From Acidobacteriota bacterium (GTDB taxonomy: Bacteria > Acidobacteriota > Aminicenantia > Aminicenantales > UBA4085): 64,000 bases of DNA. The position numbers and the translations under genes were made by a program. The notes under the pieces were generated by a model. The model saw nothing but the letters and a program-made list of their open reading frames with translations. It was not told the DNA's origin and made no database searches. The DNA lies in NCBI GenBank assembly GCA_028749235.1, contig JAQULS010000001.1, forward strand, positions 755 through 64,754, written 5' to 3'. Shown here piece after piece: positions 31,880 through 44,198 of the stretch (positions are counted from its first letter, which is position 1; each line of letters opens with the position of its first letter).

Positions 31880-33244
31880 TCAGGCCGTGATGATGCCCAG
31901 CGGGGGGTTGGTCTTCCACAAGCCGCGGGTGAAGTCGGGGATCGCGACCGGCTTGCCCTTGGCCGCGACGCTGCGGCAGGAAGCCTCGACGACCGCGCTC
32001 CAGGCGGCCGCGTCGTAGACGTCCTGGTCCAGCGGCTCGCCTTTGCGCAGGGACTGGATCAGGCGGTAATCCTCGATGTAATCCATGCCGCCGTGGCCGC
32101 GGCCCTCGCCCTTCGAGGCGATGGCCTTCCATAACGGATGATCGTACTCGGCCGCGAACCTCTCGAAGTCGTCCCAGGCGTGGGCTTTTTCGGCCTTGCC
32201 CTCGACGTAGATCCGGTCGGGCCACTTGTGGGCCAGGCCCTTGGTCCCCTGGACCAGGTTGATGCGGGTATAAGGCCGGGGCAGGTTGGTGTCGTGGATG
32301 AGGATGATCGTCTTGCCCAGCTTGGTCCGGATCAGGGACGTATTGACGTCGCCCAAGACGAATTTCTCGGCCGCCTGGGGAGAGCCGGCGCCGAACTTCT
32401 CGACGGCGTACTCATGCAGCCCCCGCCCGGGCGAGCTCATCGAGACGAGGACGTCGAAGGCGTCGCCCCGGTTGATGTTCATGCACTGGGCCACGGGGCC
32501 GAGGCCGTGGGTCGGATAGAGGTTGCCGTTGAGCTTCTGGGCCCAGGCCCGCCGCCACAGGCCCTCGCCCTCCTTGGAGAACTTGACGTCGCGCAGGTCG
32601 TGCAGGTAGCCCGCCTCGGCGTGCAGGATCTCGCCCAGCAGGCCCTGCCGGACCAGGTTCAAGGTCATAAGCTCGATCCGGTCGTAGCAGCAGTTCTCCA
32701 TCATCTGGCAGTGCTTGCCGTACTTCTCGGCCGTCTCCACCAGGGCCCAGCAGTCGTCCAGGAACATCGCCGCCGGGACCTCGGTCGCGGCGTGCTTGCC
32801 GTTCTTCATGGCCGAGAGGCATACGGGGACATGCCACTCCCAGGGGGTCGCCGTCATGACCAGGTCGAGGTCCTCCTTCTCGCACATCCGCTCGAAGTCG
32901 CGGGGGCCGTTGGAGTAGCCCGCCGGCTTGGGCCGGCCGGCGTCCGTGCACATCTTCTGGGCCCGTTCGACCTTGGCCGGAACGATGTCGCAGATCGCCT
33001 TGATCTCCAGGCCGTCGATAGCCAGGTAGTTTTGGACATGGGACGAGCCCATGCCGCCGACGCCGACGAAGCCGACCCGGACGGTTTCGACCGGGGCCGT
33101 TTTGAACCCAGATCTGGCCTGCCCGGGGCGCGCGTTCGCCTCGCCCGGCAGCGTCAGGCCGGTCAGGGCCGTGCCCGCGGAAAGGACCGCTCCCGTTTTC
33201 AGAAAATCGCGGCGGGTGGTGCTTTGGGAATCATCCATGATCAT
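31880..33244 (-). CDS. TAT-exported Gfo/Idh/MocA family NAD-dependent oxidoreductase (GH109-like glycosidase architecture)
   Basis: Twin-arginine signal TRRDFLKTGAVLSAGTALTG. Rossmann motif VGFVGVGGMGSSH. 454 aa. Confidence 0.8.
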   Translation of the reverse strand: MIMDDSQSTTRRDFLKTGAVLSAGTALTGLTLPGEANARPGQARSGFKTAPVETVRVGFVGVGGMGSSHVQNYLAIDGLEIKAICDIVPAKVERAQKMCTDAGRPKPAGYSNGPRDFERMCEKEDLDLVMTATPWEWHVPVCLSAMKNGKHAATEVPAAMFLDDCWALVETAEKYGKHCQMMENCCYDRIELMTLNLVRQGLLGEILHAEAGYLHDLRDVKFSKEGEGLWRRAWAQKLNGNLYPTHGLGPVAQCMNINRGDAFDVLVSMSSPGRGLHEYAVEKFGAGSPQAAEKFVLGDVNTSLIRTKLGKTIILIHDTNLPRPYTRINLVQGTKGLAHKWPDRIYVEGKAEKAHAWDDFERFAAEYDHPLWKAIASKGEGRGHGGMDYIEDYRLIQSLRKGEPLDQDVYDAAAWSAVVEASCRSVAAKGKPVAIPDFTRGLWKTNPPLGIITA

Positions 33245-33386: not shown

Positions 33387-34679
33387 ATGGAAGACACTCT
33401 GTTCGAAAACGGCACGGTGGGCTGCGGCGGAGCCGGTTTCCCCGCCTCGGTCAAGCTCGCCGGGCACGTTGAGACCCTGATCGTCAACGCCGCGGAATGC
33501 GAGCCCCTTCTCCACAAGGATAAGGAGCTGTTGGTCCGCCGCGGCGACGAATTCTTCGCCGGGCTGGCCGAGGCGATGAGGCGGGTGACGGCCCGCCGGG
33601 GGATCATCGCCCTCAAGAAGAAATACGCCGATCTCGCCTCGTCCGTCGCCAAGCGATGCCCGTCGGACGTCGAAGTCCATCTCCTGGACGACGTTTATCC
33701 CGCGGGCGACGAATTCGTCCTGGTCTACGAAGTCACCGGCCGGATCATCGGGCCCGGCGGCCTGCCCAAGGACGTGGACGCCGTGGTCCAGAACGTGGAG
33801 ACGCTGGTCAATATCGGCCTCGCCCGTCCGGTGACCCGCAAGGCCCTGACCGTGGCCGGATTGGTGGCCCGCCCCATGACCCTGGAAGTTCCCGTCGGCG
33901 CGCCGTTCGCGGACATCCTGGCCGCCGCGGGGGGGGCTCTCGAGCCCGATTTCGGCGTCCTCGTCGGCGGAGTCATGATGGGCCGCCTGGCCGGCGATCT
34001 CTCGGAGCCGGTGACCAAGACGACGGCGGGATTGATCGTACTGCCGATAGACCATCCTCTCCTCCGCCGGCATGCCCGGCGTCCGGAGGCCGTGCGGCGG
34101 ATCGCCCGGGCGGCCTGCGACCAATGCACGTTCTGCACCGAGCTGTGCCCCCGCTACCTCCTGAACCATCCCGTCGAGCCCCACCGCGTCATGCGCAGCT
34201 TCGGCCTTGGAATTTCCGCCGACGGCGCCGCCCGCTACGCCCGGTATTGCTCCGGCTGCCGGTTGTGCAGCCTGGCCACCTGCCCCGAAGGGCTCGACCC
34301 ATCGGAGATCTGCGGCCTGGTCAAGAACGCGACCGCGCAGGGAAGCCCCCCCCGCGGCGAGAGCCCGGCCCCGAGGCCCCATCCCCTGCGGTTCGCCCGG
34401 CGCATGCCCACGGCCAGGCTGGTCCGCAAGCTCGGCCTGGAAGGGATGCCCGATCACGCCCCTTGGAGCTCCGTCCGGATCGCCCCGCGCCGCGTCCAGA
34501 TTCCGCTCCGCCAGCACGTCGGCGTGGCGGCCGAGCCGGTGGTGCGGGTCGGGCAAACCGTGAGCGAAGGCGACTGCATCGGACGGATCCCCGCCGGCAA
34601 GCTCGGGGCGCCGGTCCATGCCAGCATCGACGGGCGCGTAGTGTCCGTCGCGGACACGGTCGTGATCGAAGCCGAATAA
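33387..34679 (+). CDS. RnfC/PduS-like flavin- and Fe-S-containing NADH oxidoreductase (microcompartment-associated redox protein)
   Basis: 51-kDa-subunit-like nucleotide-binding site GCGGAGFPASVK. Two 4Fe-4S motifs (CDQCTFCTELCP and CSGCRLCSLATCP). C-terminal barrel-sandwich RnfC_N-like segment (LRQHVGVAAEPVVRVGQTVSEGDCIG...HASIDGRVVSV), i.e. the permuted order seen in PduS. Confidence 0.8.
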   Translation: MEDTLFENGTVGCGGAGFPASVKLAGHVETLIVNAAECEPLLHKDKELLVRRGDEFFAGLAEAMRRVTARRGIIALKKKYADLASSVAKRCPSDVEVHLLDDVYPAGDEFVLVYEVTGRIIGPGGLPKDVDAVVQNVETLVNIGLARPVTRKALTVAGLVARPMTLEVPVGAPFADILAAAGGALEPDFGVLVGGVMMGRLAGDLSEPVTKTTAGLIVLPIDHPLLRRHARRPEAVRRIARAACDQCTFCTELCPRYLLNHPVEPHRVMRSFGLGISADGAARYARYCSGCRLCSLATCPEGLDPSEICGLVKNATAQGSPPRGESPAPRPHPLRFARRMPTARLVRKLGLEGMPDHAPWSSVRIAPRRVQIPLRQHVGVAAEPVVRVGQTVSEGDCIGRIPAGKLGAPVHASIDGRVVSVADTVVIEAE

Positions 34680-34686
34680 GAAAACC

Positions 34687-35247
34687 ATGGACAACATCAA
34701 CAACATCGGGATCATGGAGCTCGGCTCGCTGGCCGCGGGCTACCGGGTCGAAGACGCGCTGCTGAAGACGGCGCCCGTTTCGATCCTGATCGCCCGGCCG
34801 ATCTGCTCGGGCAAGTTCCTGATCGTCGTGGCGGGCTCGGTCGCTTCCGTCAAGGCCTCGCTCGCCGGCGGCATCCGGGTCGGCGGCGAATCGATCATCG
34901 AGCATCGGATCATCAACAACCTGCATCCCGCGGTCCTGCCCGCCCTGGGGCTTGCCGTCGAGATCGGGACGGAATTGCCGGGCGCGCTCGGCATCGTGGA
35001 GACCTTCTCGGCGGCCGCCGCCGTGGAAGCCGCCGACGCGGCCGTCAAGAACGCCCCGATCGGGCTGTTCCGGATCCACTTGGCCATGGCCATGGGCGGG
35101 AAAGGCCTGGTGCTGTTTTGCGGCGGCCTGGGCGACGTCCGGGCCGGGCTGGACGCGGCCGTCGCCGTCATGGCCGAATCGGGCATGCTCGCGGGCAGCG
35201 CCCTGATTTCGGCCCCCTCGGCCGAGCTGCTGCGGGAATACATGTAA
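34687..35247 (+). CDS. BMC-T shell protein, tandem BMC domains, PduT-like (possible Fe-S pore)
   Basis: Two BMC-fold repeats (IGIMELGSLAAGYRVEDALLKTAPV and LGIVETFSAAAAVEAADAAVKNAPIG). Cys in ARPICSGKF, at a position comparable to the PduT cluster ligand. Confidence 0.8.
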   Translation: MDNINNIGIMELGSLAAGYRVEDALLKTAPVSILIARPICSGKFLIVVAGSVASVKASLAGGIRVGGESIIEHRIINNLHPAVLPALGLAVEIGTELPGALGIVETFSAAAAVEAADAAVKNAPIGLFRIHLAMAMGGKGLVLFCGGLGDVRAGLDAAVAVMAESGMLAGSALISAPSAELLREYM

Positions 35248-35259
35248 GGAGACAAGACG

Positions 35260-35988
35260 ATGGCGGGAACATTCGACCGGACAGCCGTCGAGAAGATCGT
35301 GCGGGACGTCCTGCGGGATCTTCCCAAGGCCGAGGGCGCACCGCGCGGTGACGGCCCGGCGACTCCTCTCCCGGTCAATGTATCGGCCCGCCATATCCAC
35401 CTCTGCCGCAAGGACTTCGAAGCGCTCTTCGGCCCGGGCGCCCAACCGACGCTCCTGCGGTCTCTCTATCAGGAGGGCCATTTCGCGGCCCGGGAGACCG
35501 TGGCCATTATCGGCCCCAAGAAGCGGATGATCCCGGAACTCCGCATCCTGGGCCCGCTGCGGGACCATTCGCAGGTCGAGCTGGCCTTCACCGACGTCAT
35601 CCACCTGGGGCTCGAAAACGTCCAAGTCCGCATGTCGGGAGACATCGAGGGCACGCCCGGGGCCTGGATCCAGGGTCCGGCCGGCATGCTGGAGTTGAAG
35701 CAGGGCGTGATCCGGGCGGCCCTGCACGTCCACATGAACGAGCGCGACGCGGCCCGGATGGGGGTCGTCCACAAGGGCTTTCTGGCCCTCCGGGTCGAAA
35801 GCGACGCCCCGGTCGTTTTCGGACGCGTCCACGTCCGCGTCGACCCGTCCTTCAAGCTCGAAGTCCACATGGACACGGACGAGGCCAACGCCTGCCACCT
35901 GGCGGCGGCCCGAAACGTGTCCCTGATTCCCGTACCCGGGAGCATCGAAAGTCCCGACGACATCCACCATAAAGGAGCGCGTGCATGA
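35260..35988 (+). CDS. pduL: phosphate acyltransferase PduL (phosphotransacylase)
   Basis: Two PduL repeats with the signatures VNVSARHIHLCRKDFEALFG and AALHVHMNERDAARMG. RBS aaggaga upstream. Confidence 0.85.
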   Translation: MAGTFDRTAVEKIVRDVLRDLPKAEGAPRGDGPATPLPVNVSARHIHLCRKDFEALFGPGAQPTLLRSLYQEGHFAARETVAIIGPKKRMIPELRILGPLRDHSQVELAFTDVIHLGLENVQVRMSGDIEGTPGAWIQGPAGMLELKQGVIRAALHVHMNERDAARMGVVHKGFLALRVESDAPVVFGRVHVRVDPSFKLEVHMDTDEANACHLAAARNVSLIPVPGSIESPDDIHHKGARA

Positions 35989-36275
35989 GAAAAGCATTGG
36001 GCATGATTGAGACGATCGGCTTCGTCCCCATGCTGGAAGCCACGGATGCGGCCTGCAAGGCCGCCCACGTGACCTTCCTCCATTGGGAGCCGGCCGGTTC
36101 GGGCATGGTCACGGCCTTCTTCGAGGGCGAGGTCGCCGCCGTCAAGGCCGCCGTCGACGCCGGCGCCGAGGCCGCGGCCAAGCTGGGCAAGGTCGTGGCC
36201 GCCCAGGTCATCCCGAATCCGTACCAGGATCTCGAGGCTTTCACCGCGGGGAAGCCCAAGCCCCGGACCGCTTGA
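35985..36275 (+). CDS. BMC-H shell protein (hexamer, PduA/EutM-like)
   Basis: ALGMIETIGFVPMLEATDAACKAAHV is the BMC (Pfam00936-like) core. 96 aa. Confidence 0.85.
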   Translation: MRKALGMIETIGFVPMLEATDAACKAAHVTFLHWEPAGSGMVTAFFEGEVAAVKAAVDAGAEAAAKLGKVVAAQVIPNPYQDLEAFTAGKPKPRTA

Positions 36276-36299
36276 AGCGGGCCGAGCGAGAGGACGCAA

Positions 36300-36581
36300 A
36301 TGAGCAATCAAGCCATCGGCATGCTGGAAACGCGGGGCATGGTCGGGCTGGTCACGGCCGGTGACGCCATGTGCAAGGCCGCCAACGTGACCATGATCCG
36401 GACGGTCGAGATCGGCGGCGGCTTCGTCACCACCGTGGTCAAGGGCGAAGTCGGCAGCGTCAAGGCCGCCGTCGAAGCCGGGCTGCTGACCCTGAAGGCC
36501 GTGGGGGCCGAGATCATCGCCGCCCACGTCATCCCCCAGCCGCACGATTCCACCCTCGGGCTCGTGGACAAGAAAGGCTGA
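36300..36581 (+). CDS. BMC-H shell protein (hexamer, PduA/PduJ-like)
   Basis: AIGMLETRGMVGLVTAGDAMCKAANV. 93 aa. Confidence 0.88.
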   Translation: MSNQAIGMLETRGMVGLVTAGDAMCKAANVTMIRTVEIGGGFVTTVVKGEVGSVKAAVEAGLLTLKAVGAEIIAAHVIPQPHDSTLGLVDKKG

Positions 36582-36594
36582 GGCGCCGGCCGTC

Positions 36595-37767
36595 ATGAAG
36601 ATCCTGGTGCCGAACATCGGCAGCACGTCGTTCAAGTATCGGCTCATCGATATGGACGGCGAGGCCGTGCTCGGCGAGGGCAAGATCGAGCGCATCGGCC
36701 GGCCCGGCGGCGACTGCCCCGATTACCCCGCCGCCATCCGGCGCTGCCTGGACGCGCTGGTCGGCCCGGGCAAGCCGCTGGCCGCCCTGGACGAGCTGTC
36801 GGCCGTGGGCTTCAAGGCCGTTCACGCCCACGGGCTGACGGGCGCCGTGCCCGTGACGCCGGAAGTCCTGGCGGCCATGGAGGAATACGCCTTTCTCCTG
36901 CCGGCCCACAACCCGCCCTATGTCGCGGCCATGAAGGCCTTCGCCGCCGCGGCGCCCACGGTCCCGTCCGTGGCGCTTTTCGAGACGGCCTTTTTCACGG
37001 ACATGCCCGAGGCGGCCTCCATCTACGCCGTGCCTTGGTCGTGGCGGGAGGAGGACGGGGTGCGGCGTTTCGGCTTCCACGGCGCCAGCCACCGCTATGC
37101 CAGCGACCAGGCGCGGCGTCTGGTCGGGCGGGACGGGCTGGCCCACATTTCCTGCCACCTGGGCGGCAGCTCGAGCCTGGCCGCCGTCAAGGACGGCCGG
37201 GCCGTCGACACCAGCTTCGGCATGACCCCCCAGAGCGGCATCCCCCAGAATAACCGGGTCGGAGACGTCGACGTCTTCGCCGTGCTGTATCTCATGAAAA
37301 AACACGGGCTCGGCCCCGACGAGATGGCCCGGACGCTGGCCCAGGAATCCGGGCTGGCCGGCATCTCGGGCCTCAGCGGCGACGTCCGCGACCTCGAGGC
37401 CGCGGCGGCCCGGGGACACGAGCGGGCCCGGCTGGCCCTGGAAGCCTATGTCTACGCCGTGCGCCGCTTCCTGGGGGCCTTCCTGATCGAGCTCGGCAAG
37501 GTCGATGTGATCACCTTCTCCGGCGGCATCGGCGAGCACTCGGCCTGGGTCCGGCGGCGCGTCCTGCGCGGCCTGGAGCCGTTCGGCATCATCCTCGACG
37601 ATCGTCGCAACGAGGCGGCGGAGAAAAACACGCGCATCTCCGCCGAGTCCTCGCCGGCGCAGGTCTGGGTCGTCGAGACCAACGAAGAGATCGTCGTGGC
37701 CCGGGCCGCGGCGGACGTCCTGAAAAGAATCCAAGCGGAAAAATCGGCGGGACGCGCGGCGTCCTGA
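36595..37767 (+). CDS. ackA: acetate/propionate kinase
   Basis: MKILVPNIGSTSFKYRL is the acetokinase N-terminal signature. Also ...VGFHGASHRYA... 390 aa. Confidence 0.88.
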   Translation: MKILVPNIGSTSFKYRLIDMDGEAVLGEGKIERIGRPGGDCPDYPAAIRRCLDALVGPGKPLAALDELSAVGFKAVHAHGLTGAVPVTPEVLAAMEEYAFLLPAHNPPYVAAMKAFAAAAPTVPSVALFETAFFTDMPEAASIYAVPWSWREEDGVRRFGFHGASHRYASDQARRLVGRDGLAHISCHLGGSSSLAAVKDGRAVDTSFGMTPQSGIPQNNRVGDVDVFAVLYLMKKHGLGPDEMARTLAQESGLAGISGLSGDVRDLEAAAARGHERARLALEAYVYAVRRFLGAFLIELGKVDVITFSGGIGEHSAWVRRRVLRGLEPFGIILDDRRNEAAEKNTRISAESSPAQVWVVETNEEIVVARAAADVLKRIQAEKSAGRAAS

Positions 37768-37785
37768 GACAAAGGAGTTCCTATC

Positions 37786-38061
37786 ATGGTGAATCCGGCG
37801 ATCGGAATGATCGAAACGCGGGGCCTGACGGCCCTGGTCATGGCCACCGACGCGATGCTCAAGGCGTCGGCGGTGGAGTTCATGGGCTGGCGGAAGGTCG
37901 GCAGCGGTTTGTGCTCCGCCTACGTCAAGGGCGACGTGGCCGCCGTGCGGACCTCCCTGGACGCCGGCATCGCCATCGCCCGCGAGGTCGGCCAAATCGT
38001 CAACACCCAGGTCCTGTCGCGCCCCCACGACGAGATCCAGGGCATGGTCCCGAAGCGCTGA
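37786..38061 (+). CDS. BMC-H shell protein (hexamer)
   Basis: AIGMIETRGLTALVMATDAMLKASAV. 91 aa. Confidence 0.88.
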   Translation: MVNPAIGMIETRGLTALVMATDAMLKASAVEFMGWRKVGSGLCSAYVKGDVAAVRTSLDAGIAIAREVGQIVNTQVLSRPHDEIQGMVPKR

Positions 38062-38080
38062 CCGGGCGCGGAGTCAAGAC

Positions 38081-38378
38081 CATGCTACTGGCCAAAGTCA
38101 TGGGGACGGTCGTCTCTTCGCAGAAGCACGCCAAGTTCCAGGGTATGAAGCTTTTCCTCATCCAACCCTGCGGTAGCTCCGATAAGAAGCTCGTCCCGCA
38201 GGGCGGCAGCTTGGTCGCCGTCGACTGCGTGACCTGCGGCGTCGGCGACCTGGTCCTCTTCACCCAGGGCAGCTCGGCCCGCATGACCGAGTGCACCAAG
38301 GACAGCCCCGTCGACGCCGTGATCATCGGCATCGTCGATGCCGTCGAGGTCCACGGCAAGCCCCTGGGGAAGCCCTAG
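38081..38378 (+). CDS. BMC-P vertex (pentamer) protein, EutN/PduN/CcmL family
   Basis: MLLAKVMGTVVSSQK... is the typical BMC-P N-terminus. 99 aa from ATG 38081 within a longer track ORF. Confidence 0.8.
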
Positions 38379-38402
38379 CCGGGGAAGGGAGCGCGTTCGG
38401 CC

Positions 38403-39866
38403 ATGATGAGTTTCCCCCCTCCTCCTCCCTACCGCGACCTGGACATCCCGGCCGTCGTGGCCGAGGTCGTCCGCCGGATGTCCGCCGAGCGGGCCGCCGG
38501 AAGCGCCGCGGACGCCGCGGCCGGCCCGGAGCCCGCGCATCCCGGGGCGGACGGCGTCTTCCCGACCGTCGACGAAGCCGTGGCGGCCGCCCGCCGGGCC
38601 CAGCCCAAGCTGGCCGCGCTGACCCTCGACCAGCGGGGCCTCATCGTCGACATCATCAAGAAATACTGCGTGGAAAACGCCGCGGAGCTGGCCCACATGG
38701 AGTTCCAAGAGTCCCGCATCGGGCGGGAGGACCACAAGCTCCAGAAGCTGACCATCATCTCCAAGGTCCTCGGCGTCGAGTCCCTGCGGACCAGGGTCCG
38801 GGTCGACGACACCGGGACCGAGTTCATCGCCGCCGCCCCTTTTGGCGTCATCGGCATGGTCACGCCGGCGACGCACAGCGTCCCGACCATGGCCGGCAAC
38901 GCCATCAACGTCATCGCGGCCGGGAACACGGCCGTCTTTTCGCCCCACCCCGCGGCCAGCCGCTGCCTGCAGTACGCCTTGAAGCAGATCAACCGGAGAA
39001 TCCGGGCCAAAACGGGGCTGGAGAACCTGATCACCACCATGGCCAAGCCGTCCATCGAGGCGGCCGGCGAGCTCTTCCGTCATCCGGGCATCGCCATTCT
39101 CAACATCACCGGCGGCCCGGCCGTCGTCAAGGCGGCCATGAAAGCCGGCAAGCGGGTCATCGCCGCGGCGCCGGGCAACCCGCCCGTCGTCGTCGACGAG
39201 ACCGCCGACATCCCGGCCGCCGTCAAGCACATCATCTTCGGGGCCTCCTTCGACAACAACCTCCTGTGCCTCGGCGACAAGGAGGTCTTCGTCGTCGAAG
39301 CGGTCATGGACGAGTTTATGACAGCCATGCGCCGGGCGGGAGCGGTCGAGCTCGCTCCCGGCCAGATCGAGCGCCTGGCCCAGGCCGCCTTCGTCCTCGA
39401 CAAGGCCTCCGGCGAGCGGCACGTGAACCGCGACTTCGTCGGGAAAAGCGCGGCCGTCCTGGGCCGGGCGGCGGGCGCGATCGTAGCCGACTCCGTCGAC
39501 CTGCTGTTCGGCGAGACGGAGGAGAACCATCTTTTCGTCCAGGAGGAGCAGATGATGCCGTTCCTCCCGATCGTCCGGGTCAAGGACGTCGACGCCGCGA
39601 TCGCGGCGGCCAAGCGGGCCGAGCACGGCTACCATCACTCGGCCATGATCCACACCCGGAACGACGAGACGGCCCGGCGGATGGCCCGCATCCTGGACAC
39701 CACCCTGTTCGTCCGCAACGCGGCCTGCACGGCGGCCCTCGGCGTCGACGGGCCGGGCTACCTGAGCTACAGCATCGCCACGGCCACCGGCGAGGGAGTG
39801 ACGACGCCGCTGACCTTCACCCGCCAGCGGCAGATGATCATCGGCGGCCGCTACGACTATTTTTAA
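38403..39866 (+). CDS. CoA-acylating aldehyde dehydrogenase (PduP/EutE family) with N-terminal encapsulation-peptide-like extension
   Basis: Catalytic Cys context FDNNLLCLGDKEV. PduP-like length (487 aa). N-terminus has a Pro-run (PPPPPY) followed by an amphipathic helix DIPAVVAEVVRRMSAE. Confidence 0.85.
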   Translation: MMSFPPPPPYRDLDIPAVVAEVVRRMSAERAAGSAADAAAGPEPAHPGADGVFPTVDEAVAAARRAQPKLAALTLDQRGLIVDIIKKYCVENAAELAHMEFQESRIGREDHKLQKLTIISKVLGVESLRTRVRVDDTGTEFIAAAPFGVIGMVTPATHSVPTMAGNAINVIAAGNTAVFSPHPAASRCLQYALKQINRRIRAKTGLENLITTMAKPSIEAAGELFRHPGIAILNITGGPAVVKAAMKAGKRVIAAAPGNPPVVVDETADIPAAVKHIIFGASFDNNLLCLGDKEVFVVEAVMDEFMTAMRRAGAVELAPGQIERLAQAAFVLDKASGERHVNRDFVGKSAAVLGRAAGAIVADSVDLLFGETEENHLFVQEEQMMPFLPIVRVKDVDAAIAAAKRAEHGYHHSAMIHTRNDETARRMARILDTTLFVRNAACTAALGVDGPGYLSYSIATATGEGVTTPLTFTRQRQMIIGGRYDYF

Positions 39867-39883
39867 ACCGAGGAGAGAATCCG

Positions 39884-40171
39884 GTGTACCTGGCGAGAAT
39901 CGAGGGCTCGGCGGTGACGACCCTTCACCACAAGAGCCTGGTCGGCCGCAAGCTGCTCATCGCCCGGCGCTGCGAGCCCGACGGCCGTCTGGCGGCCGAG
40001 CCGGTACTGGCCCTCGACGCCGTGGGAGCGGGCCTGGGCGACCTGGTCCTGATCTCCACGGACGGCGAGCTGGCCCGCAGCCTGACCGGCCACAAGACGG
40101 CGCCCGTGCGCCTGACGGCCGTGGGCATCGTCGACGCCGTCGACGGACCGAAGCCGGGAGACATCCGATGA
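39884..40171 (+). CDS. BMC-P vertex (pentamer) protein, second paralog
   Basis: VYLARIEGSAVTTLHHKSLVGRKLLIARR...LISTDGELARSL...AVGIVDAVD. GTG start with RBS aggagag. Hidden in the track as the tail of a spurious 626-aa ORF. Confidence 0.7.
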   Translation: MYLARIEGSAVTTLHHKSLVGRKLLIARRCEPDGRLAAEPVLALDAVGAGLGDLVLISTDGELARSLTGHKTAPVRLTAVGIVDAVDGPKPGDIR

Positions 40172-40461
40172 GGCTGGGCATCGTCAAGGGAACCGTGGTC
40201 CTCGGCCGCGGGCTGGCCGCCCTGGAGGGCACCCGCTACCTGATCATCGAGCCCTTGACGTCGGACGACCTGAAAGCCGGCGCCACCCGGGGAAGCGGCC
40301 GGGAAGTCGTGGCCGCCGATCACCTGGCCCCCGGCCCGGGGCAAATGGTCTGCTTTGAAGAGGGCCGCGAAGCCTGCGCTCCGTGGCTTCCGGCCGGCGT
40401 CCCGATCGACGCCTACGTCAGCGGCATCATCGACTCGATATCCTATCAACCGGCGGAATGA
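40168..40461 (+). CDS. BMC-P vertex (pentamer) protein, third paralog
   Basis: MRLGIVKGTVVLGRGLAALEGTRYLIIEPL... 97 aa. ATGA overlap with the previous gene. Confidence 0.78.
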   Translation: MRLGIVKGTVVLGRGLAALEGTRYLIIEPLTSDDLKAGATRGSGREVVAADHLAPGPGQMVCFEEGREACAPWLPAGVPIDAYVSGIIDSISYQPAE

Positions 40462-40465
40462 CAAC

Positions 40466-41587
40466 ATGAAACAGCTTTCCCTGCGGGGCCAAAACGTGAT
40501 TTCGGGCGCGGTCATCGGCCAGGCGGCGCGCGACGGCTGCACGGAGATCCTCATCGACGGCGACGCGGTCGTCACCTCGCTGGCCCTGGATTCCGCCGCG
40601 ATGGCGGGCATCCGCCTCGTCCGCGAAGGAGACGCCCGCCGCTTCGACGCCCCCGCCGGGGCCTTCGCCGCCGCGGGCGGGCCGGCTTCCCCCGAGGTCC
40701 TGTTTGCGTCCGCCGAGGCGCGGGCCGCCAAGGACGAGATCGTGGCCGTCGGCAGGAAGCTCTGGCAGCGATCCTACGTCGACGGCAACGGCGGCAACAT
40801 CTCCTGCCGGATCGGGGACAAGCACGTCCTGTGCACGCCGACCCTGGTCAGCAAGGGCGACCTTACCCCGGACGACCTCTGCCTGGTCGATCTGGACGGG
40901 AACCAGATCGCGGGCCGCAGGAAAAAGACGAGCGAGATCCTGCTCCACCTGGAGATCATGAAGGCCCAGCCCAAGGCCCGGGCCTGCGTCCATGCCCATC
41001 CCCCGCATGCCACGGCCTACGCCATCACGGGCATGGTGCCGCCCGTGCGGGTCATCCCCGAAGCCGAGATCTTCGTCGGATACGCCGCCTTCGCCCCCTA
41101 CGGCACGCCCGGCACGGCCGACATCTCCCGCCACGTCGTCGAGCTCGTCGCCGACCACAACACCATCCTGCTGGGAAATCACGGCGTCATCTGCTGGGCC
41201 GACACGCCCCTGCGCGCCGAATGGTGCATCGAGATCCTCGAGACCTACTGCCAGACGCTCCTTATCGCCTCGCAGTTGAACGTCCCGATCAAGACGATCC
41301 CCTCGGACAAGTCCGCCGCCCTCCTCGACACCAAGAGAAAGTTGAATCTGCCCGATCCCCGCTTGAGCGGACGGGCATGCGACGGGGAGGACCTCGGGAG
41401 CGAGCTGACCGGCATCACCGTCTGCCCGGGCGCCTGCGCCGCCGGCAACGGCCCCTGCCGGCTGAACGGATCGTGCGACTGCCCGCGGGAGCGGACCGGG
41501 ACGCCGGTTCCGAAGCGCGCGAGCGGCGAATCCGAGGCCCTGATCGGCCGCATCGTCGACGAGGTCATGAAGGCCCTCGGCCGATAG
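40466..41587 (+). CDS. class II aldolase/adducin-family protein (fuculose/rhamnulose-1-phosphate aldolase-like) with N-terminal extension, Cys-rich C-terminal segment and terminal encapsulation-peptide-like helix
   Basis: Aldolase core (WQRSYVDGNGGNISCR, HAHPPHATAYAI, LLGNHGVICW). Extra 80 aa at the N-terminus. C-terminal CPGACAAGNGPCRLNGSCDCP then EALIGRIVDEVMKALGR. Confidence 0.8.
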   Translation: MKQLSLRGQNVISGAVIGQAARDGCTEILIDGDAVVTSLALDSAAMAGIRLVREGDARRFDAPAGAFAAAGGPASPEVLFASAEARAAKDEIVAVGRKLWQRSYVDGNGGNISCRIGDKHVLCTPTLVSKGDLTPDDLCLVDLDGNQIAGRRKKTSEILLHLEIMKAQPKARACVHAHPPHATAYAITGMVPPVRVIPEAEIFVGYAAFAPYGTPGTADISRHVVELVADHNTILLGNHGVICWADTPLRAEWCIEILETYCQTLLIASQLNVPIKTIPSDKSAALLDTKRKLNLPDPRLSGRACDGEDLGSELTGITVCPGACAAGNGPCRLNGSCDCPRERTGTPVPKRASGESEALIGRIVDEVMKALGR

Positions 41588-41664: not shown

Positions 41665-43401
41665 TCATCGATCGGCCAAGGCCGCCGCTGTGAGATAAAC
41701 CAAGCGGATGATCCGGGCCATCCACTCGGGGTTGATTTTGGCGGCTTCGTCGCCCGTCTGATGATAGTCCGCGTGCATGACGCCCGCCCAGTATAGATAG
41801 GGCACGCCGGCGGCGGCGAAAGGCAGGTAGTCGCTGACGATGCCGGAGCTCTTGACCACGGCTTCGGCCTGCGGCCAGAGATCGATGCCGATCGTCTGAT
41901 CGGCCTGCCGCAGGATCTCGCCCAAGCCACGGCCCGCCGCGAAAGCGACCACGGCGAAATTATCGGCCGAGATGTTTTTTTGCGCCTCGGCCGGGACCTT
42001 GAGCCTCCTCATCCGGGCCTTCAGGCTCTCCTCGTCATAGGTTCGCCCGATCATGTCGAGATTGAGGTAGGCCGCCGCGCGGGACAGGGGGAAAGCGGGC
42101 TTCCGGATATAGGCGGACGAGCCGAGCATACCCAGCTCTTCCCCGGTCCACAGGCAAAAGACGATCGTCCGTTTCGGCTTCACGGGCAAGCCGGCGATCG
42201 CCCGGGCGATCGCCAGGACGCCGGCCGCGCCGCTGCCGTTGTCGTCGGCGCCGTTGAAGACATACCGGTCCCGCCGGCCCAGGTGATCCAGGTGCGCGCC
42301 TATCGTCACGGTTTCGTCTTTCAGCTTCGGATCGCTTCCGGGAATGAAGCCGACGACGTTATGGCAGCGCAGCAGCCGTTCGCACTCGGCCGTCGTCCGG
42401 ATGGTCAGCTTGCCGCCGGCGATTTCAAGGGAGGCCGGCTTCCAATCGCTTTTGATCCTGGCCCGCAGGCCTTCGATGTTCCGCCCCGAAGAGGACAGGA
42501 GGACATCGGCCGCTTCCCGGGTTATGAAGATGGCTCCTCCTTCCCGCTTCGCGCCGGGCAGGGTGCACAGACGGCTCGGCTCCGTGATCAGCGGCCGCTC
42601 GTCGCTCTCCGCGGCCGGCCCCATCTGATCGTAGATATCGCCGTCTTTCATGTCATCCCTGACCACGAGGACGGCGACCGGGCCGAGCTTGGCGACTTCG
42701 GCGGCCTTGTTGAGCGGGCCGATGAAGGAGCGGAACCCCTTGTATTTTTCGGCCAGATCCGCCTTCATGAACGGAGAGGCCGGATCGTCCCGGCCGGGAA
42801 CCCCGTCGAGGATCATGACGATCCGGCCTTTGACGTCCAGCTTGGCGAAGTCGTCATAGCCGATCGAGTCCTCGCGGATGCCGTAGCCGGCGAAAACCAC
42901 GGGCGCGGTAAGCGTCTCCGGGATCCGGTTCCGATAATAGTTCTCCAAGTCGACGCCTTCGTGGAAGACCCGGCCGCCGCCGGCGCTCTCTTGGCTTCCC
43001 TGCCAGGAGAGCGTGCATCCCAGGCCGGTATACTCCTTCATCACGACTTCCTGCAGATAGCTTCGGGCCCCGTCTCCCCCCGAGTCTCCGGCCGGCTCGA
43101 TCCGCCAAAGGGCGAAGAGCGACGCGGCGTACTCGGCCGCCAAGCGATAGCCGCGGGAGCCGGCCTCCCGGCCCTCCAGGAAATCAGAGGCCAGGAAGGA
43201 AAGTAAGGCTCGGGAAGCCGGGCCGGTCAGGGTCTCGAATCCGGCCCGATAGCGCTCCGGAACGGCCGCCCGTGTTTCGACTTTGATCAAGGCGTTATCG
43301 CCGGCCCCGCCGCCTTGTTTTGGTTCCTGCGGCACGGCTTGTCCGGGAACGGCCGCGAAACTGAAAAGAACCAATATCCCTGTCGCAAATGATCGGCGCA
43401 T
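41665..43401 (-). CDS. secreted M28 family aminopeptidase with PA domain
   Basis: Signal peptide MRRSFATGILVLFSFAAVPGQA. Zinc-ligand context HLDHLG...GADDNGSGAAGVLAIA...GEELGMLGS. Start taken at M104 of the track ORF to avoid overlap with the next gene. Confidence 0.8.
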   Translation of the reverse strand: MRRSFATGILVLFSFAAVPGQAVPQEPKQGGGAGDNALIKVETRAAVPERYRAGFETLTGPASRALLSFLASDFLEGREAGSRGYRLAAEYAASLFALWRIEPAGDSGGDGARSYLQEVVMKEYTGLGCTLSWQGSQESAGGGRVFHEGVDLENYYRNRIPETLTAPVVFAGYGIREDSIGYDDFAKLDVKGRIVMILDGVPGRDDPASPFMKADLAEKYKGFRSFIGPLNKAAEVAKLGPVAVLVVRDDMKDGDIYDQMGPAAESDERPLITEPSRLCTLPGAKREGGAIFITREAADVLLSSSGRNIEGLRARIKSDWKPASLEIAGGKLTIRTTAECERLLRCHNVVGFIPGSDPKLKDETVTIGAHLDHLGRRDRYVFNGADDNGSGAAGVLAIARAIAGLPVKPKRTIVFCLWTGEELGMLGSSAYIRKPAFPLSRAAAYLNLDMIGRTYDEESLKARMRRLKVPAEAQKNISADNFAVVAFAAGRGLGEILRQADQTIGIDLWPQAEAVVKSSGIVSDYLPFAAAGVPYLYWAGVMHADYHQTGDEAAKINPEWMARIIRLVYLTAAALADR

Positions 43402-43475
43402 ATCGGAAGCCTCCCAAACGATGGATTCATAGATAGAACGCTTGGCGGCCGGGAACAGGGACATAAAGACGACGG

Positions 43476-44198
43476 TCATTCGGCGGCGATGGCGTTGAGC
43501 GCCTTGCGCCGCTCCTTCCAATCCGGCAGGCACCGGGCCAATAGCGAGTAGAAAGACGCGCCGTGGTCGTGATGCTTGAGGTGGCAGAGCTCGTGCAGGA
43601 CGACGTACTCGACGAGAGACGGAGCCGTTTGCACCAGGCGGGTATTGAAGACGATGCGCCCGTCCCGGCCGCAGCTCCCCCAGCGCCTTTTCATCCAGCG
43701 GAGAGACCACGGCGGCGCGGCGAGGCCGCCGAAGGGATCCGCCTCCAAGCCCCGGTCCAGGGCCGCCGCGAGAACCTGCCCGGCCCGCCGCTTAAGCCAG
43801 GATTCGATCCTGCGGCGGACGGCCTCCCGGTCATGGATGTCCGCGACGGGCACGACGAGAACGCCGTCCGCGAATGCCGCCCGCCTGGCCCGGCCCGGCT
43901 CGATCTTCACGGGATAGGTTTGGCCGAGGATCGAGATCAGGCCCGTTTCGGCGGACTTCGCCGGGGCATGCAATCGGATGCGGGTTTCGCTCTTTCGGAC
44001 GGCGCGTTCGATCCAGGCGGCCTTCTCGCGGGCGAAGGCCAGGACCCGGGCCGGAGCGACGCCGCGGGGGACGGAGGCCCGGACGCGGCCGTCGTCGAGA
44101 ACGGCAATCCGTATCCGCCGCCCCTTGCCCCGCTCCAGAGAAAGGGGGATTTTCCGGGAAGCCGTCTCGAGGATCAGGGTTTCCGCCGCGGGCCTCAC
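43476..44198 (-). CDS. M48-family/DUF45 (YgjP-like) metal-dependent hydrolase
   Basis: HELCHLKHHDH zinc-binding HExxH context near the C-terminus. 240 aa. Confidence 0.75.
   Translation of the reverse strand: MRPAAETLILETASRKIPLSLERGKGRRIRIAVLDDGRVRASVPRGVAPARVLAFAREKAAWIERAVRKSETRIRLHAPAKSAETGLISILGQTYPVKIEPGRARRAAFADGVLVVPVADIHDREAVRRRIESWLKRRAGQVLAAALDRGLEADPFGGLAAPPWSLRWMKRRWGSCGRDGRIVFNTRLVQTAPSLVEYVVLHELCHLKHHDHGASFYSLLARCLPDWKERRKALNAIAAE

What the first reader, a model, noticed from the sequence alone, without database searches (positions are those of the whole stretch)
40466..41587. Class II aldolase with an 80-aa N-terminal extension and a seven-cysteine C-terminal segment ahead of an amphipathic encapsulation-like helix
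The aldolase core (GNGGNISCR, HAHPPHATAYAI) starts only around residue 95. Before it lies a Gly/Ala-rich domain (MKQLSLRGQNVISGAVIGQAARDGCTEILIDGDAVVTSLALDSAAMAGIRLVREG) of unknown function. After the core, residues around nt 41375-41530 contain CDGEDLGSELTGITVCPGACAAGNGPCRLNGSCDCP. The protein ends with EALIGRIVDEVMKALGR, a predicted amphipathic helix of the kind that targets cargo into BMC shells. A Cys-rich, potentially metal- or disulfide-forming linker in a microcompartment cargo enzyme is unusual.
Basis: seen in the sequence. Interest (0 to 1): 0.6.

Follow-up and report, generated by a model that had tools for sequence, protein, structure and literature searches.

The report
Microcompartment aldolase with two docking modules
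This gene encodes the sugar-phosphate aldolase of a bacterial microcompartment. Besides the known C-terminal targeting helix, it has an N-terminal domain related to the shell-binding module of EutQ and a conserved, uncharacterised cysteine block.

Summary
The ORF (40466-41587, +, 373 aa) is real and is the last gene of a PVM-type microcompartment operon in an Acidobacteriota (Aminicenantes-like) MAG. It has five parts:
- an α/β N-domain (aa 1-55);
- a disordered linker;
- a FucA-like class II aldolase core (about aa 76-300);
- a conserved Cys-containing tail;
- an amphipathic C-terminal helix (aa 357-373).

The start codon is correct: more than 100 homologues cover the full length, and 565 or more genome loci encode relatives.

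The C-terminal encapsulation peptide on microcompartment aldolases is already published.

Two things are not described in the papers I could search. First, the N-domain is homologous to EutQ residues 2-47, the region experimentally shown to bind the Eut shell. It shows a one-per-locus pattern: where the aldolase lacks it, a separate protein (targeting helix plus N-domain, usually followed by an RpiB-like domain) is encoded in the same locus.

Second, C305 is conserved in 111 of 118 homologues. The nine sequences of the closest clade share an invariant block, CPGAC-x6-C-x7-CP, which matches no known family.

Verdict: a new variant of a known kind. Function of both features is inferred only. Interest is moderate.

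The parts
40466..41587 (+). Complete aldolase gene (373 aa plus stop), last gene of the microcompartment operon
   Evidence: ORF list and sequence. Identical protein P0001 in NCBI, named 'MAG: Acidobacteriota bacterium'. A terminator-like hairpin lies at 41712-41730.
40466..40630 (+). N-domain, aa 1-55: small β-α-β-α-β domain homologous to EutQ residues 2-47
   Evidence: AF2 pLDDT 90-98 in the full-length model and 88 mean alone. hhalign against E. coli EutQ: probability 83%, E 8.8e-6. HMM against EutQ: 20-22 bits, conditional E 1-2e-8. Weak Pfam PDU_like hits in 9 of 44 members. No Foldseek PDB match with E below 0.05.
40631..40690 (+). Gly/Ala/Pro-rich disordered linker, aa 56-75
   Evidence: pLDDT below 50 for aa 56-71. 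Length and sequence vary among homologues.
40691..41365 (+). Class II (FucA-like) aldolase core, aa 76-300
   Evidence: Pfam PF00596 at aa 91-265, E 4e-45. Foldseek to YgbL and FucA, E 1e-18 to 1e-16, TM about 0.88 on the target. E157, H176, H178 and H239 are invariant in 118 sequences and align with the S-E, H-x-H and N-H-G motifs of solved FucA chains.
41342..41422 (+). Conserved post-core motif, aa 293-319 (LNLPDPRLSGRACDGEDLGSELTGITV), containing C305. It overlaps the last 8 residues of the core as defined above.
   Evidence: The family consensus is L-G-L-P-D-x-R ... E-C-x-L-[C/S/A]-D-x-P-E-x-x-G-x-I-[A/T]-[V/L/I]. C305 is present in 111 of 118 sequences. The second Cys is present in 76 of 118 and is replaced by Glu (E308) here. 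AF2 pLDDT is below 50 for aa 307-322.
41423..41488 (+). Four-Cys block, aa 320-341 (CPGACAAGNGPCRLNGSCDCPR): C320, C324, C331, C339, plus C337, which is shared only with P0003
   Evidence: I317-R341 is nearly invariant in the 9 sequences of the closest clade (window protein plus P0002-P0009), while aa 342-356 vary. The block is present in only 15-21 of 118 family members. No Pfam or PDB sequence match. pLDDT about 50.
41489..41533 (+). Variable linker, aa 342-356
   Evidence: Poorly conserved even among the closest relatives. Low pLDDT.
41534..41584 (+). C-terminal encapsulation-peptide-type amphipathic helix, aa 357-373 (EALIGRIVDEVMKALGR)
   Evidence: Highest hydrophobic moment in the protein. 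AF2 helix at aa 355-372, pLDDT about 93. The consensus E-A-[LI]-[VI]-x-x-[IV]-T-D-x-V-M-x-A-L is conserved through the family, including PVM aldolases without the N-domain. Published as an EP class.
33387..40461 (+). Rest of the operon: PduS-like (33387-34679), PduT-like BMC-T (34687-35247), PduL-type PTAC (35260-35988), BMC-H (35985-36275; 36300-36581), acetate kinase (36595-37767), BMC-H (37786-38061), BMC-P (about 38082-38378), aldehyde dehydrogenase (38403-39866), BMC-P (about 39884-40171), BMC-P (40168-40461)
   Evidence: Pfam scans and translations. The same gene order occurs in related loci. PTAC and AldDH carry N-terminal EP-like helices. The operon is bounded by a GH109-like gene on the - strand (31880-33244) and an M28 peptidase on the - strand (41665-43710).

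Best explanation
The gene encodes the signature enzyme of a PVM-type metabolosome. It is a Zn-dependent class II aldolase that most likely cleaves L-fuculose- or L-rhamnulose-1-phosphate into DHAP and lactaldehyde. The co-encoded aldehyde dehydrogenase, PduL-type phosphotransacylase and acetate kinase would then process the lactaldehyde inside the shell.

The enzyme carries two organelle-association modules on flexible tethers:
1. The known C-terminal encapsulation peptide (aa 357-373).
2. An N-terminal 55-residue α/β domain that is homologous to the H1/H2 module of EutQ, the part of EutQ that associates with the Eut shell.

Class II aldolases of this type are tetramers. Each particle would therefore display four N-domains and four encapsulation peptides. 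This would let the signature enzyme itself act as a multivalent link between the shell and the cargo core. In canonical PVM loci a separate protein (EP, N-domain, RpiB-like domain) would play that role.

Between the core and the encapsulation peptide lies a conserved Cys motif (C305). In this clade it is followed by an invariant CPGAC-x6-C-x7-CP block. This most likely forms a small metal-bound or disulfide-stabilised knot that structures or cross-links the tether.

Shown by computation:
- the domain layout;
- the conservation;
- homology to EutQ residues 2-47;
- the complementary locus distribution.

Inferred:
- the substrate;
- the tetramer;
- shell binding by the N-domain;
- any metal or redox role of the cysteines.
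For: **Core and locus**
- Pfam, fold and catalytic-motif matches to FucA.
- Operon content of PTAC, three BMC-H, acetate kinase, three BMC-P and aldehyde dehydrogenase.
- The same gene order occurs in related loci. Most of the 80 related loci contain homologues of these operon genes, with counts limited by flank length (49-73 of 80).
- The same order occurs in Puniceicoccus vermicola.

**Encapsulation peptide**
- Hydrophobic moment and AF2 helix.
- The family-wide conserved EP sequence is also present on aldolases in canonical PVM loci.
- Literature.

**N-domain**
- Confident fold prediction.
- hhalign against EutQ aa 2-47: probability 83%, E 8.8e-6. hmmsearch conditional E 1-2e-8.
- E. coli EutT N-terminus also hit at 22.7 bits.
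- Deleting EutQ residues 9-41 disconnects EutQ from the shell, and EutQ 1-99 targets GFP to Eut microcompartments (PMC12487888; PMC4827028).

**Complementary distribution**
- Among the window, the 80 related loci, L084 and L091, the only N-domain is on the aldolase. In five frame-shifted loci it sits in the ORF directly upstream. L069 gave no hit above E 1.
- In all 4 distinct microcompartment loci whose aldolase lacks it (L082/L083, L085, L090, L088), another locus protein carries an N-terminal EP-like helix plus the N-domain. Scores are 15-35 bits, conditional E 4e-6 to 1e-12.
- In three of those four, the extra gene sits between the second and third BMC-P genes and ends in an RpiB-like domain. 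That gene is absent from N-domain-aldolase loci.

**Cysteines**
- C305 is present in 111 of 118 sequences.
- The block at aa 317-341 is invariant in the 9-sequence clade while the flanks vary.
Against: - The EutQ match spans only about 45 residues at 18% identity. The hhalign template was a single sequence.
- EutQ shell binding was mapped by deletion and imaging, not by a structure of the complex.
- The aldolase lacks EutQ's H3/H4 EP-binding helices.
- The window's clade has diverged at the otherwise conserved T-P-x-A-R-D motif (TSLALD here).
- AF2 gives no confident placement of the N-domain relative to the core (pTM 0.68).
- AF2 gives low confidence (pLDDT about 50) for the whole Cys region.
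- Some EP-bearing aldolases have no tail cysteines at all (P0127, P0141).
- The window protein lacks the second Cys of the common CxLC pair.
- No Pfam or PDB match was found for the Cys block.
- The complementary-distribution sample on the N-domain-less side is only four loci.
- No fucose or rhamnose kinase, isomerase or DeoR gene was found in the window, so the substrate rests on homology and synteny.
Confidence: 0.6

Rival explanations
1. The N-domain is not a shell adaptor. It is instead a ligand-binding, regulatory or oligomerisation domain that happens to be shared by enzymes of microcompartment pathways (EutQ, EutT, PduL, RpiB-like, aldolase).
For: The most conserved feature is a short T-P-x-A-R-D motif (T37 and A40 invariant), which looks like a binding motif. 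The domain occurs on enzymes that handle phosphorylated or nucleotide substrates. It shows weak similarity to the peripheral-subunit-binding (E3_binding) motif.
Against: Deletion of EutQ 9-41 specifically uncouples EutQ from the shell, and EutQ 1-99 is sufficient for targeting. Apart from E. coli EutQ and EutT, every hit was in a microcompartment locus. There was no other hit below E 0.5 among about 17,500 flanking ORFs. The one-per-locus pattern fits a structural role better than an enzyme-specific one.
Confidence: 0.22
2. The cysteines in the tail have no specific function. The tail is simply a flexible tether whose composition drifts, and the Cys-rich stretch is a lineage quirk.
For: AF2 pLDDT is about 50 over aa 301-352. 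Cys number and spacing vary widely across the family, from 0 to 9 per tail. There is no match to any known metal-binding family. The published view is that the linker is poorly conserved.
Against: C305 is kept in 111 of 118 sequences. Sixteen of the 25 positions in aa 317-341, including four cysteines, are invariant in nine sequences that are only 70-83% identical to the window protein overall, and the next 15 residues vary freely. Cys is 6.4% in the tail and 1.1% in the equally disordered N-terminal linker of the same proteins.
Confidence: 0.2
3. The Cys block binds an iron-sulfur cluster. It takes part in electron transfer together with the PduS-like flavoprotein and the PduT-like shell trimer encoded at the head of the operon.
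For: There are four to five cysteines within 20 residues, ending in C-P. The locus encodes a PduS-like Fe-S flavoprotein and a BMC-T with the PduT-type 'ICxGK' cysteine. No Ldh-type NAD+-recycling gene is present in the window or in the 80 related loci.
Against: The spacing (C-x3-C-x6-C-x7-C) matches no ferredoxin or radical-SAM motif. Only one marginal hit to an Fe-S Pfam family was found, in 1 of 10 sequences at E 0.07. Most family members that keep the PduS/PduT pair have only 2-3 tail cysteines. An aldolase has no need for electrons.
Confidence: 0.08
4. The N-terminal extension is an annotation artefact, with the true start near residue 85-90.
For: Pfam and the solved homologues begin only at residues 84-91. 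In a few related long-read MAG loci the N-domain lies in a different frame from the core (L040, L048, L064, L070, L071).
Against: The 55 residues are conserved at the protein level in 117 of the 118 aligned homologues (P0003 is N-terminally truncated) and in 79 of the 80 loci. They fold confidently. They start 5 nt after the upstream stop codon. They are homologous to a domain found in other microcompartment proteins.
Confidence: 0.02

Closest known systems
PVM microcompartment class II aldolase (Planctomycetes/Verrucomicrobia fucose/rhamnose organelle; Erbilgin 2014, as cited in PMC4207490 and PMC4594438)
   Same: Same Pfam family and the same conserved C-terminal EP sequence. The post-core 'L-G-[IL]-P-D-x-R ... 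C-x-L-C' motif recurs. The operon order is the same: PTAC, BMC-H, acetate kinase, BMC-P, AldDH, BMC-P, BMC-P, aldolase.
   Different: Canonical PVM aldolases (for example P0145, P0150, P0151) have no N-domain. Their loci instead encode a separate EP, N-domain, RpiB-like protein, and two of the three (L082/L083; L085 and L090 lack it) also an Ldh-type dehydrogenase. Of the three, only L082/L083 extends far enough upstream to show a DeoR regulator. The window locus has the N-domain fused to the aldolase and a PduS/PduT-like pair. It has no Ldh and no adjacent DeoR, and it is in Acidobacteriota.
EutQ N-terminal region (H1/H2) of the ethanolamine-utilisation microcompartment (PMC12487888; PMC4827028)
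   Same: Sequence-profile homology over EutQ residues 2-47, with the same helix-containing core and the T-P-x-A-R-[DE] motif. It sits at the extreme N-terminus and is followed by a flexible linker.
   Different: In EutQ the module is followed by the H3/H4 helices that bind cargo EPs and by a cupin acetate-kinase domain. Here it is followed by an aldolase that carries its own EP. Shell binding has been tested only for EutQ.
ACI microcompartment aldolase of Acidobacteria (Sutter et al. 2021, PMC8217296)
   Same: A pfam00596 aldolase with a C-terminal EP in an Acidobacteria locus with a BMC-P triplet.
   Different: ACI is described as having its AldDH on a satellite locus and a hydroxyacid dehydrogenase in the main locus. 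Here AldDH, PTAC and acetate kinase are in the main operon, and no such dehydrogenase was seen in it. The paper does not mention an N-terminal domain.
Pfam PF15953 'PDU_like' (putative propanediol utilisation)
   Same: The last 40 or so positions of this 153-position model match the N-domain weakly: 9 of 44 aldolase N-domains, and 20.7 bits for the L088 264-aa protein.
   Different: All scores are below the family's gathering cut-off of 27 bits. The rest of the model has no counterpart in the aldolase.

Membership tests
Class II aldolase/adducin (PF00596), FucA-like | Significant match to the family profile | tested here: met
   154 bits against a cut-off of 22.2, aa 91-265. No NCBIfam equivalog reaches its cut-off, so the exact substrate class is not assigned.
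Class II aldolase/adducin (PF00596), FucA-like | Zn-binding His triad and catalytic Glu (E73, H92, H94, H155 in E. coli FucA; numbering from my own knowledge) | tested here: met
   E157, H176, H178 and H239 are invariant in 118 sequences. They align with the S-E, H-x-H and N-H-G motifs of solved FucA chains.
Class II aldolase/adducin (PF00596), FucA-like | Fold | tested here: met
   Foldseek to YgbL and FucA: E 1e-18 to 1e-16, TM 0.87-0.89 on the target, rmsd about 2 Å.
Class II aldolase/adducin (PF00596), FucA-like | Aldol cleavage of L-fuculose- or L-rhamnulose-1-phosphate | not testable with these tools
   Needs an enzyme assay. No kinase or isomerase genes were found in the window.
BMC encapsulation peptide (Kinney 2012 / Aussignargues 2015 definition) | A terminal peptide of about 15-20 aa predicted as an amphipathic helix | tested here: met
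   AF2 helix at aa 355-372, pLDDT about 93. Top hydrophobic moment of the protein, shuffle fraction 0.009.
BMC encapsulation peptide (Kinney 2012 / Aussignargues 2015 definition) | Separated from the catalytic domain by a linker and absent from non-BMC homologues | tested here: met
   A tail of about 56 aa separates the core from the helix. Solved non-BMC FucA and YgbL chains end at or just after the position aligned to query residues 283-289.
BMC encapsulation peptide (Kinney 2012 / Aussignargues 2015 definition) | Linker poorly conserved | tested here: not met
   aa 293-319 are conserved family-wide, and aa 317-341 are invariant within the clade. Only aa 342-356 behave as a variable linker.
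BMC encapsulation peptide (Kinney 2012 / Aussignargues 2015 definition) | Actually directs cargo into the shell | not testable with these tools
   Needs a targeting experiment.
PVM-type microcompartment locus | PF00596 aldolase with AldDH, PduL-type PTAC, acetate kinase, BMC-H genes and a BMC-P triplet | tested here: met
   The order is identical to the Puniceicoccus vermicola locus L084.
PVM-type microcompartment locus | DeoR regulator and Ldh-type dehydrogenase in the locus | tested here: not met
   No homologue of either is present in the 64-kb window.
PVM-type microcompartment locus | Host in Planctomycetes or Verrucomicrobia | tested here: not met
   The identical protein is labelled Acidobacteriota. 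The nearest genome loci are 'Candidatus Aminicenantes' MAGs.
ACI locus (Sutter 2021) | AldDH on a satellite locus; hydroxyacid dehydrogenase (pfam00389/02826) in the main locus | tested here: not met
   AldDH lies within the operon at 38403-39866. No such dehydrogenase is among the operon genes scanned.
EutQ N-terminal shell-binding module | Sequence homology to EutQ residues about 2-47 | tested here: met
   hhalign probability 83%, E 8.8e-6. hmmsearch 20-22 bits, conditional E 1-2e-8. The region is short and identity is 18%, so homology is probable rather than certain.
EutQ N-terminal shell-binding module | Followed by the H3/H4 EP-binding helices and a cupin domain | tested here: not met
   A disordered linker and then the aldolase core follow the module.
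EutQ N-terminal shell-binding module | Binds shell proteins | not testable with these tools
   Experimental for EutQ only.
Pfam PDU_like (PF15953) | Score above the gathering cut-off (27 bits) | tested here: not met
   Best aldolase N-domain hit is E 0.0065 (9 of 44 members hit at all). The one member scored reached 14 bits.
Known Cys-based metal sites (zinc ribbon, rubredoxin, ferredoxin) | Match to a curated family or a solved structure | tested here: not met
   No Pfam hit below E 0.006. The only PDB sequence hits are at E 1.4.

The most novel reading that the evidence does not exclude
The 55-residue N-domain is the general shell adaptor of aldolase-type (PVM-like) metabolosomes and is needed once per organelle locus. 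It is supplied either by a dedicated protein (EP, N-domain, RpiB-like domain) or, after gene fusion, by the signature aldolase itself. In the fused form the aldolase tetramer would become the scaffold that couples cargo core to shell, which is the role EutQ, CcmN, CsoS2 and the PduB N-terminus play in other microcompartments. The same module on EutQ, EutT and some PduL proteins would make it a second, domain-type targeting signal distinct from the amphipathic encapsulation peptide. The clade-specific four-Cys knot would add metal- or redox-dependent cross-linking of the tether.
Probability: 0.3. Interest if true: 0.65.

Novelty: new variant of a known kind. Interest (0 to 1): 0.5.

Why it matters
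Targeting to microcompartments is usually explained by short amphipathic encapsulation peptides. Only in 2025 was a folded region of EutQ shown to link shell and cargo. If the same module is fused to the signature enzyme in at least 565 species representatives (mostly Acidobacteria in the 80 loci listed), and is supplied in trans in canonical PVM loci, two things follow. It would be a portable, domain-type shell tag that could be used to engineer synthetic organelles. It would also identify the missing assembly factor of a very widespread, mostly uncultured class of sugar-degrading microcompartments in soil and sediment bacteria. The conserved cysteine block raises a testable question: do metals or redox state control cargo tethering? 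The enzyme, the locus type and the C-terminal peptide are already known, so the advance is incremental rather than categorical.

Tried and rejected
- **Pfam and NCBIfam on the isolated N- and C-terminal extensions.** No family passes its threshold. Only marginal TubC_N, PDU_like and E3_binding hits appeared.
- **Profile search of the N-domain against PDB sequences.** The top hits were de novo TIM-barrel designs. They match through repeated short 18-residue stretches, each insignificant on its own, so I rejected them. L7Ae/YbxF hit at E 0.2, not significant.
- **Foldseek of the N-domain model against PDB.** Best E was 0.05, to fragments of TRiC, LpxI and RlmB. No convincing fold relative.
- **Profile of the Cys block against PDB and Pfam.** Nothing found.
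- **The search for homologous proteins with a mixed EutQ/aldolase N-domain profile.** It returned only fragments of 90 aa or less, so it could not give domain architectures. It did reveal PTAC fragments with a C-terminal N-domain and one fragment labelled 'EutT'.
- **Literature search for a cysteine-rich linker on microcompartment aldolases.** No paper found. A search for EutQ together with PVM aldolase found only Axen 2014, whose EutQ and N-terminal passages do not mention an N-terminal domain on aldolases.
- **Mis-called start.** Rejected on conservation and fold.
- **ACI classification.** Rejected because AldDH is in the main operon.
- **Sugar kinase, isomerase and DeoR genes in the window.** None found by BLAST with the Puniceicoccus proteins.
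Full report
**1. The observation**

The ORF runs from ATG 40466 to the stop at 41585-41587 on the + strand and encodes 373 aa. Pfam places the class II aldolase domain at residues 91-265 only (E 4e-45). Solved FucA and YgbL chains align from query residues 84-88 to 283-289.

Two details need correcting:
- The quoted C-terminal segment holds six cysteines (C305, C320, C324, C331, C337, C339), not seven.
- The first 55 residues are not Gly/Ala-rich filler. AlphaFold2 predicts a compact β-α-β-α-β domain with pLDDT 90-98 in the full-length model and 88 mean on its own. The Gly/Ala/Pro-rich stretch is the disordered linker at aa 56-75.

The C-terminal 17 residues contain the strongest helical hydrophobic moment in the protein. 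Only 0.9% of shuffles of the tail match it. AF2 predicts a helix at aa 355-372 with pLDDT about 93.

**2. Context**

The gene is the last of a co-directional operon at 33387-41587. The gene order is:
- PduS-like flavoprotein
- PduT-like tandem BMC-T
- PduL-type phosphotransacylase
- two BMC-H
- acetate kinase
- BMC-H
- BMC-P
- aldehyde dehydrogenase
- two BMC-P
- the aldolase

The operon is bounded by a GH109-like gene and an M28 peptidase on the opposite strand. A terminator-like hairpin follows the aldolase. The phosphotransacylase and the aldehyde dehydrogenase have N-terminal amphipathic helices of the encapsulation-peptide type.

An identical protein is in NCBI as 'MAG: Acidobacteriota bacterium'. 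The nearest genome loci (77% and 72% identity) are 'Candidatus Aminicenantes' MAGs with the same gene order.

**3. Real gene, real start**

- More than 100 homologues of 345-390 aa cover 99-100% of the query at 46-83% identity.
- A scan of one genome per species found at least 565 loci encoding relatives. Nearly all of the 80 listed are Acidobacteriota.
- An HMM of the N-domain hits 79 of the 80 loci fetched. L069 gave no hit at E up to 1.
- The ATG lies 5 nt after the stop of the upstream BMC-P gene.

The 'mis-called start' alternative is rejected.

**4. The core**

Foldseek matches YgbL and FucA structures with E 1e-18 to 1e-16 and TM about 0.88 on the target. E157, H176, H178 and H239 are invariant in 118 sequences. 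They align with the S-E, H-x-H and N-H-G motifs of solved fuculose-phosphate aldolases. These correspond to the catalytic Glu and the three Zn ligands of E. coli FucA (residue roles from established knowledge of that enzyme).

No NCBIfam equivalog reaches its cut-off. No sugar kinase, isomerase or DeoR gene is in the window. The substrate (L-fuculose- or L-rhamnulose-1-phosphate giving lactaldehyde) is therefore inferred from homology and from synteny with the PVM organelle.

**5. The C-terminal helix is already known**

Aussignargues et al. 2015 describe a C-terminal peptide of about 17 aa on 21 of 23 microcompartment-associated class II aldolases, separated from the core by a 23-81 residue linker. 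Sutter et al. 2021 note a C-terminal encapsulation peptide on the Acidobacteria 'ACI' aldolase.

The peptide sequence here (EALIGRIVDEVMKAL) fits a family-wide consensus. That consensus also occurs on aldolases of canonical PVM loci, for example DALVKVITDQVMKAM in P0145.

**6. The N-domain**

*No curated family.* No Pfam or NCBIfam family passes its threshold. However, 9 of 44 N-domains give weak hits to the C-terminal 40 positions of PF15953 'PDU_like'.

*Homology to EutQ.* Recalling a similar motif at the start of EutQ, I fetched E. coli EutQ.
- hhalign of the N-domain alignment against it gives probability 83% and E 8.8e-6 over EutQ residues 2-47.
- hmmsearch gives 20-22 bits, conditional E 1-2e-8.
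- The EutT N-terminus scores 22.7 bits.

*What that region of EutQ does.* Yang et al. 2025 (PMC12487888) show that EutQ residues 1-99 are sufficient to target GFP to Eut microcompartments. Deleting residues 9-41 (helices H1/H2) leaves EutQ with the cargo but detached from the shell. Helices H3/H4 bind cargo encapsulation peptides. Held et al. 2016 found that removing EutQ 1-100 abolishes binding to EutM. The aldolase N-domain therefore corresponds to the shell-associating half of the EutQ adaptor region.

*No solved fold relative.* Foldseek found no PDB structure with this fold (best E 0.05).

**7. A complementary, one-per-locus distribution**

A search of 50%-identity cluster representatives reached more distant aldolases.

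*Aldolases that keep the N-domain.* Examples are P0130, P0134 and P0137. P0137 is from the verrucomicrobium Puniceicoccus vermicola.

*Aldolases that lack it.* P0145, P0150, P0151 and P0196 start directly at the core but keep the tail and the C-terminal peptide. There is no room for an N-domain between the aldolase and the preceding gene.

*Loci where the aldolase has the N-domain.* This set is the window, the 80 related loci, L084 and L091.
- No other ORF within 8-10 kb matches the N-domain HMM.
- In the two fully annotated loci (L084, L091) the two downstream BMC-P genes are adjacent.
- No RpiB-like homologue was found in the window or the 80 loci.

*Loci where the aldolase lacks it.* In all four distinct microcompartment loci of this kind, another gene encodes an N-terminal amphipathic helix followed by the N-domain.

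| Locus | Extra protein | N-domain HMM score | Conditional E | Rest of the protein |
|---|---|---|---|---|
| L082/L083 | 213 aa | 27.9 bits | 9e-11 | RpiB-like (sub-threshold, 16.3 bits) |
| L085 | 262 aa | 15-18 bits | 4e-6 to 2e-7 | RpiB-like (PF02502, 25.7 bits) |
| L090 | 263 aa | 22.9 bits | 1e-8 | RpiB-like (PF02502 on record) |
| L088 | 264 aa | 35.3 bits | 1e-12 | N-domain at the C-terminus, the PDU_like layout |

Sources. In the first three loci the gene lies between the second and third BMC-P genes.

*Other carriers.* Fragments of PduL-type phosphotransacylases with a C-terminal N-domain also exist, for example P0394.

*Specificity.* Among about 17,500 ORFs of 40 aa or more in the window and loci L001-L081, the only hits below E 0.5 outside aldolase genes were E. 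coli EutQ and EutT.

This fusion-or-separate pattern argues that the module has a microcompartment-level function and works together with the aldolase. The N-domain-less side of the comparison rests on only four loci.

**8. The cysteine-containing tail**

*Family-wide pattern.* Across 118 homologues, Cys frequency is 6.4% in the tail, 1.1% in the N-terminal linker, 0.9% in the N-domain, 2.9% in the core and 0% in the terminal helix. The first part of the tail is not a poorly conserved linker. Its consensus is L-G-L-P-D-x-R-...-E-C-x-L-[C/S/A]-D-x-P-E-x-x-G-x-I-[A/T]-[V/L/I]-x-P.

| Cysteine position | Present in | In the window protein |
|---|---|---|
| First Cys | 111 of 118 | C305 |
| Second Cys | 76 of 118 | Glu (E308) |
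| Third Cys | 63 of 118 | C324 |

*Outside the Acidobacteriota family.* Related 'C-x-L-C-[D/G]-N' motifs occur on PVM aldolases without the N-domain. A few EP-bearing homologues have no tail cysteines at all (P0127, P0141).

*The clade-specific block.* In the nine sequences of the closest clade (the window protein plus P0002-P0009, which are 70-83% identical to it), the block I317-T-V-C-P-G-A-C-x-x-G-x-G-P-C-x-L-x5-C-P-R341 is essentially invariant. The following 15 residues vary freely. This indicates purifying selection on a four-Cys unit. C337 is shared only with P0003.

*No known match.* The block matches no Pfam family or PDB sequence, and AF2 confidence there is about 50.

*Prior literature.* The 2015 review's own Table 2 lists 5.5 ± 3.6% Cys for aldolase linkers, against 0.2-1% for three other listed cargo linkers (AldDH, PduE, PTAC). 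It does not discuss cysteine. No paper in the searchable library links a cysteine-rich linker to microcompartment aldolases.

*Reading.* A small metal-bound or disulfide-stabilised knot is the most economical reading. It is inference only.

**9. Mechanism proposed**

The aldolase produces lactaldehyde inside the shell. The aldehyde dehydrogenase, phosphotransacylase and acetate kinase process it, following the published PVM scheme.

FucA-type aldolases are C4 tetramers (established knowledge). If this one is too, each particle presents four N-domains and four encapsulation peptides on flexible tethers. It could then bridge shell and cargo core the way EutQ does in trans.

The locus type differs from canonical PVM loci in three ways:
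- the N-domain is fused to the aldolase;
- the locus carries a PduS/PduT-like pair;
- it lacks the Ldh-type dehydrogenase.

**10. Classification and novelty**

The protein is a member of the class II aldolase family and of the microcompartment-aldolase subgroup with a C-terminal encapsulation peptide. Both are known.

The locus meets the PVM core definition but not its accessory or taxonomic features. It does not fit the ACI description.

The N-domain fusion and its relation to EutQ, the one-per-locus pattern and the conserved Cys block are not described in the papers I could search.

I rate it a new variant of a known kind, with moderate interest.

Noticed in passing
window 33387-35247: A PduS-like Fe-S flavoprotein heads the operon, with its RnfC_N barrel-sandwich domain at the C-terminal end. 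It is followed by a PduT-like tandem BMC-T carrying the 'PICSGKF' cysteine. The pair is conserved in at least 49 of 80 related loci. No Ldh-type dehydrogenase is present in the window or in those loci, whereas loci L082/L083, L084 and L091 have one right after the aldolase. The pair may replace the alcohol dehydrogenase for NAD+ recycling.
   Followed up: partly
L082:9025-9666; L085:3939-4727; L090:5187-5978: Canonical PVM loci encode a protein of 213-263 aa between the second and third BMC-P genes. It has an N-terminal EP-like helix, the N-domain and a divergent RpiB/LacAB-like domain (above the Pfam cut-off only for L085; on record for L090). This gene is absent where the aldolase carries the N-domain.
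   Followed up: yes
L088:11142-11936: In a different aldolase-type locus, a 264-aa protein has an EP-like N-terminus and the N-domain at its C-terminus (35 bits). This matches the layout of Pfam PDU_like, although the Pfam score is below threshold.
   Followed up: partly
P0386, P0394, P0396 (protein fragments): These look like the C-terminal ends of PduL-type phosphotransacylases followed by the N-domain. P0394 matches PF06130 positions 147-175 and then the N-domain. This would be another cargo enzyme carrying the module.
   Followed up: partly
L001:18506-19318 (E. coli eutT): The N-terminus of EutT matches the second half of the N-domain HMM (22.7 bits). A metagenomic fragment labelled as EutT (P0366) was also retrieved.
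   Followed up: no
P0052, P0077, P0100, P0105 (homologues, alignment A2): Some homologues carry a Cys cluster, such as 'CNGCSGCSTC', in the N-terminal linker rather than in the C-terminal tail.
   Followed up: no
P0178 / L086:9001-9993; P0207 / L087:4769-5668: These aldolases have the tail and the C-terminal peptide but are encoded away from any shell genes, so they may be satellite cargo. P0178 has a tail of about 110 aa that is extremely rich in Gly and Cys.
   Followed up: no
L082:12080-13396: The Pfam-less 438-aa protein that follows Ldh in this PVM locus ends in a Cys/His-rich stretch (HGCGCHANG...APACACH). Pfam-less proteins of 429 and 421 aa occupy the corresponding position in L091 and L090.
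   Followed up: no
P0122; P0197: P0122 has the C-terminal half of a BMC-H domain in front of the aldolase core in place of the N-domain. P0197 has a tandem duplication of the N-domain. Either could be an assembly or gene-calling artefact.
   Followed up: no
L040, L048, L064, L070, L071 (about 7400-8400): In several long-read MAG loci the N-domain lies in a separate reading frame immediately upstream of the aldolase core. This could be a frameshift error in the linker or a genuinely split gene.
   Followed up: no
window 40574-40621 (aa 37-52): The 'T-P-S-A-R-D-x-A-x-x-x-G-[IL]' stretch of the family's N-domain gives sub-threshold hits to the E3-binding (peripheral subunit-binding) domain, best 21.4 bits against a cut-off of 23.7.
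   Followed up: no
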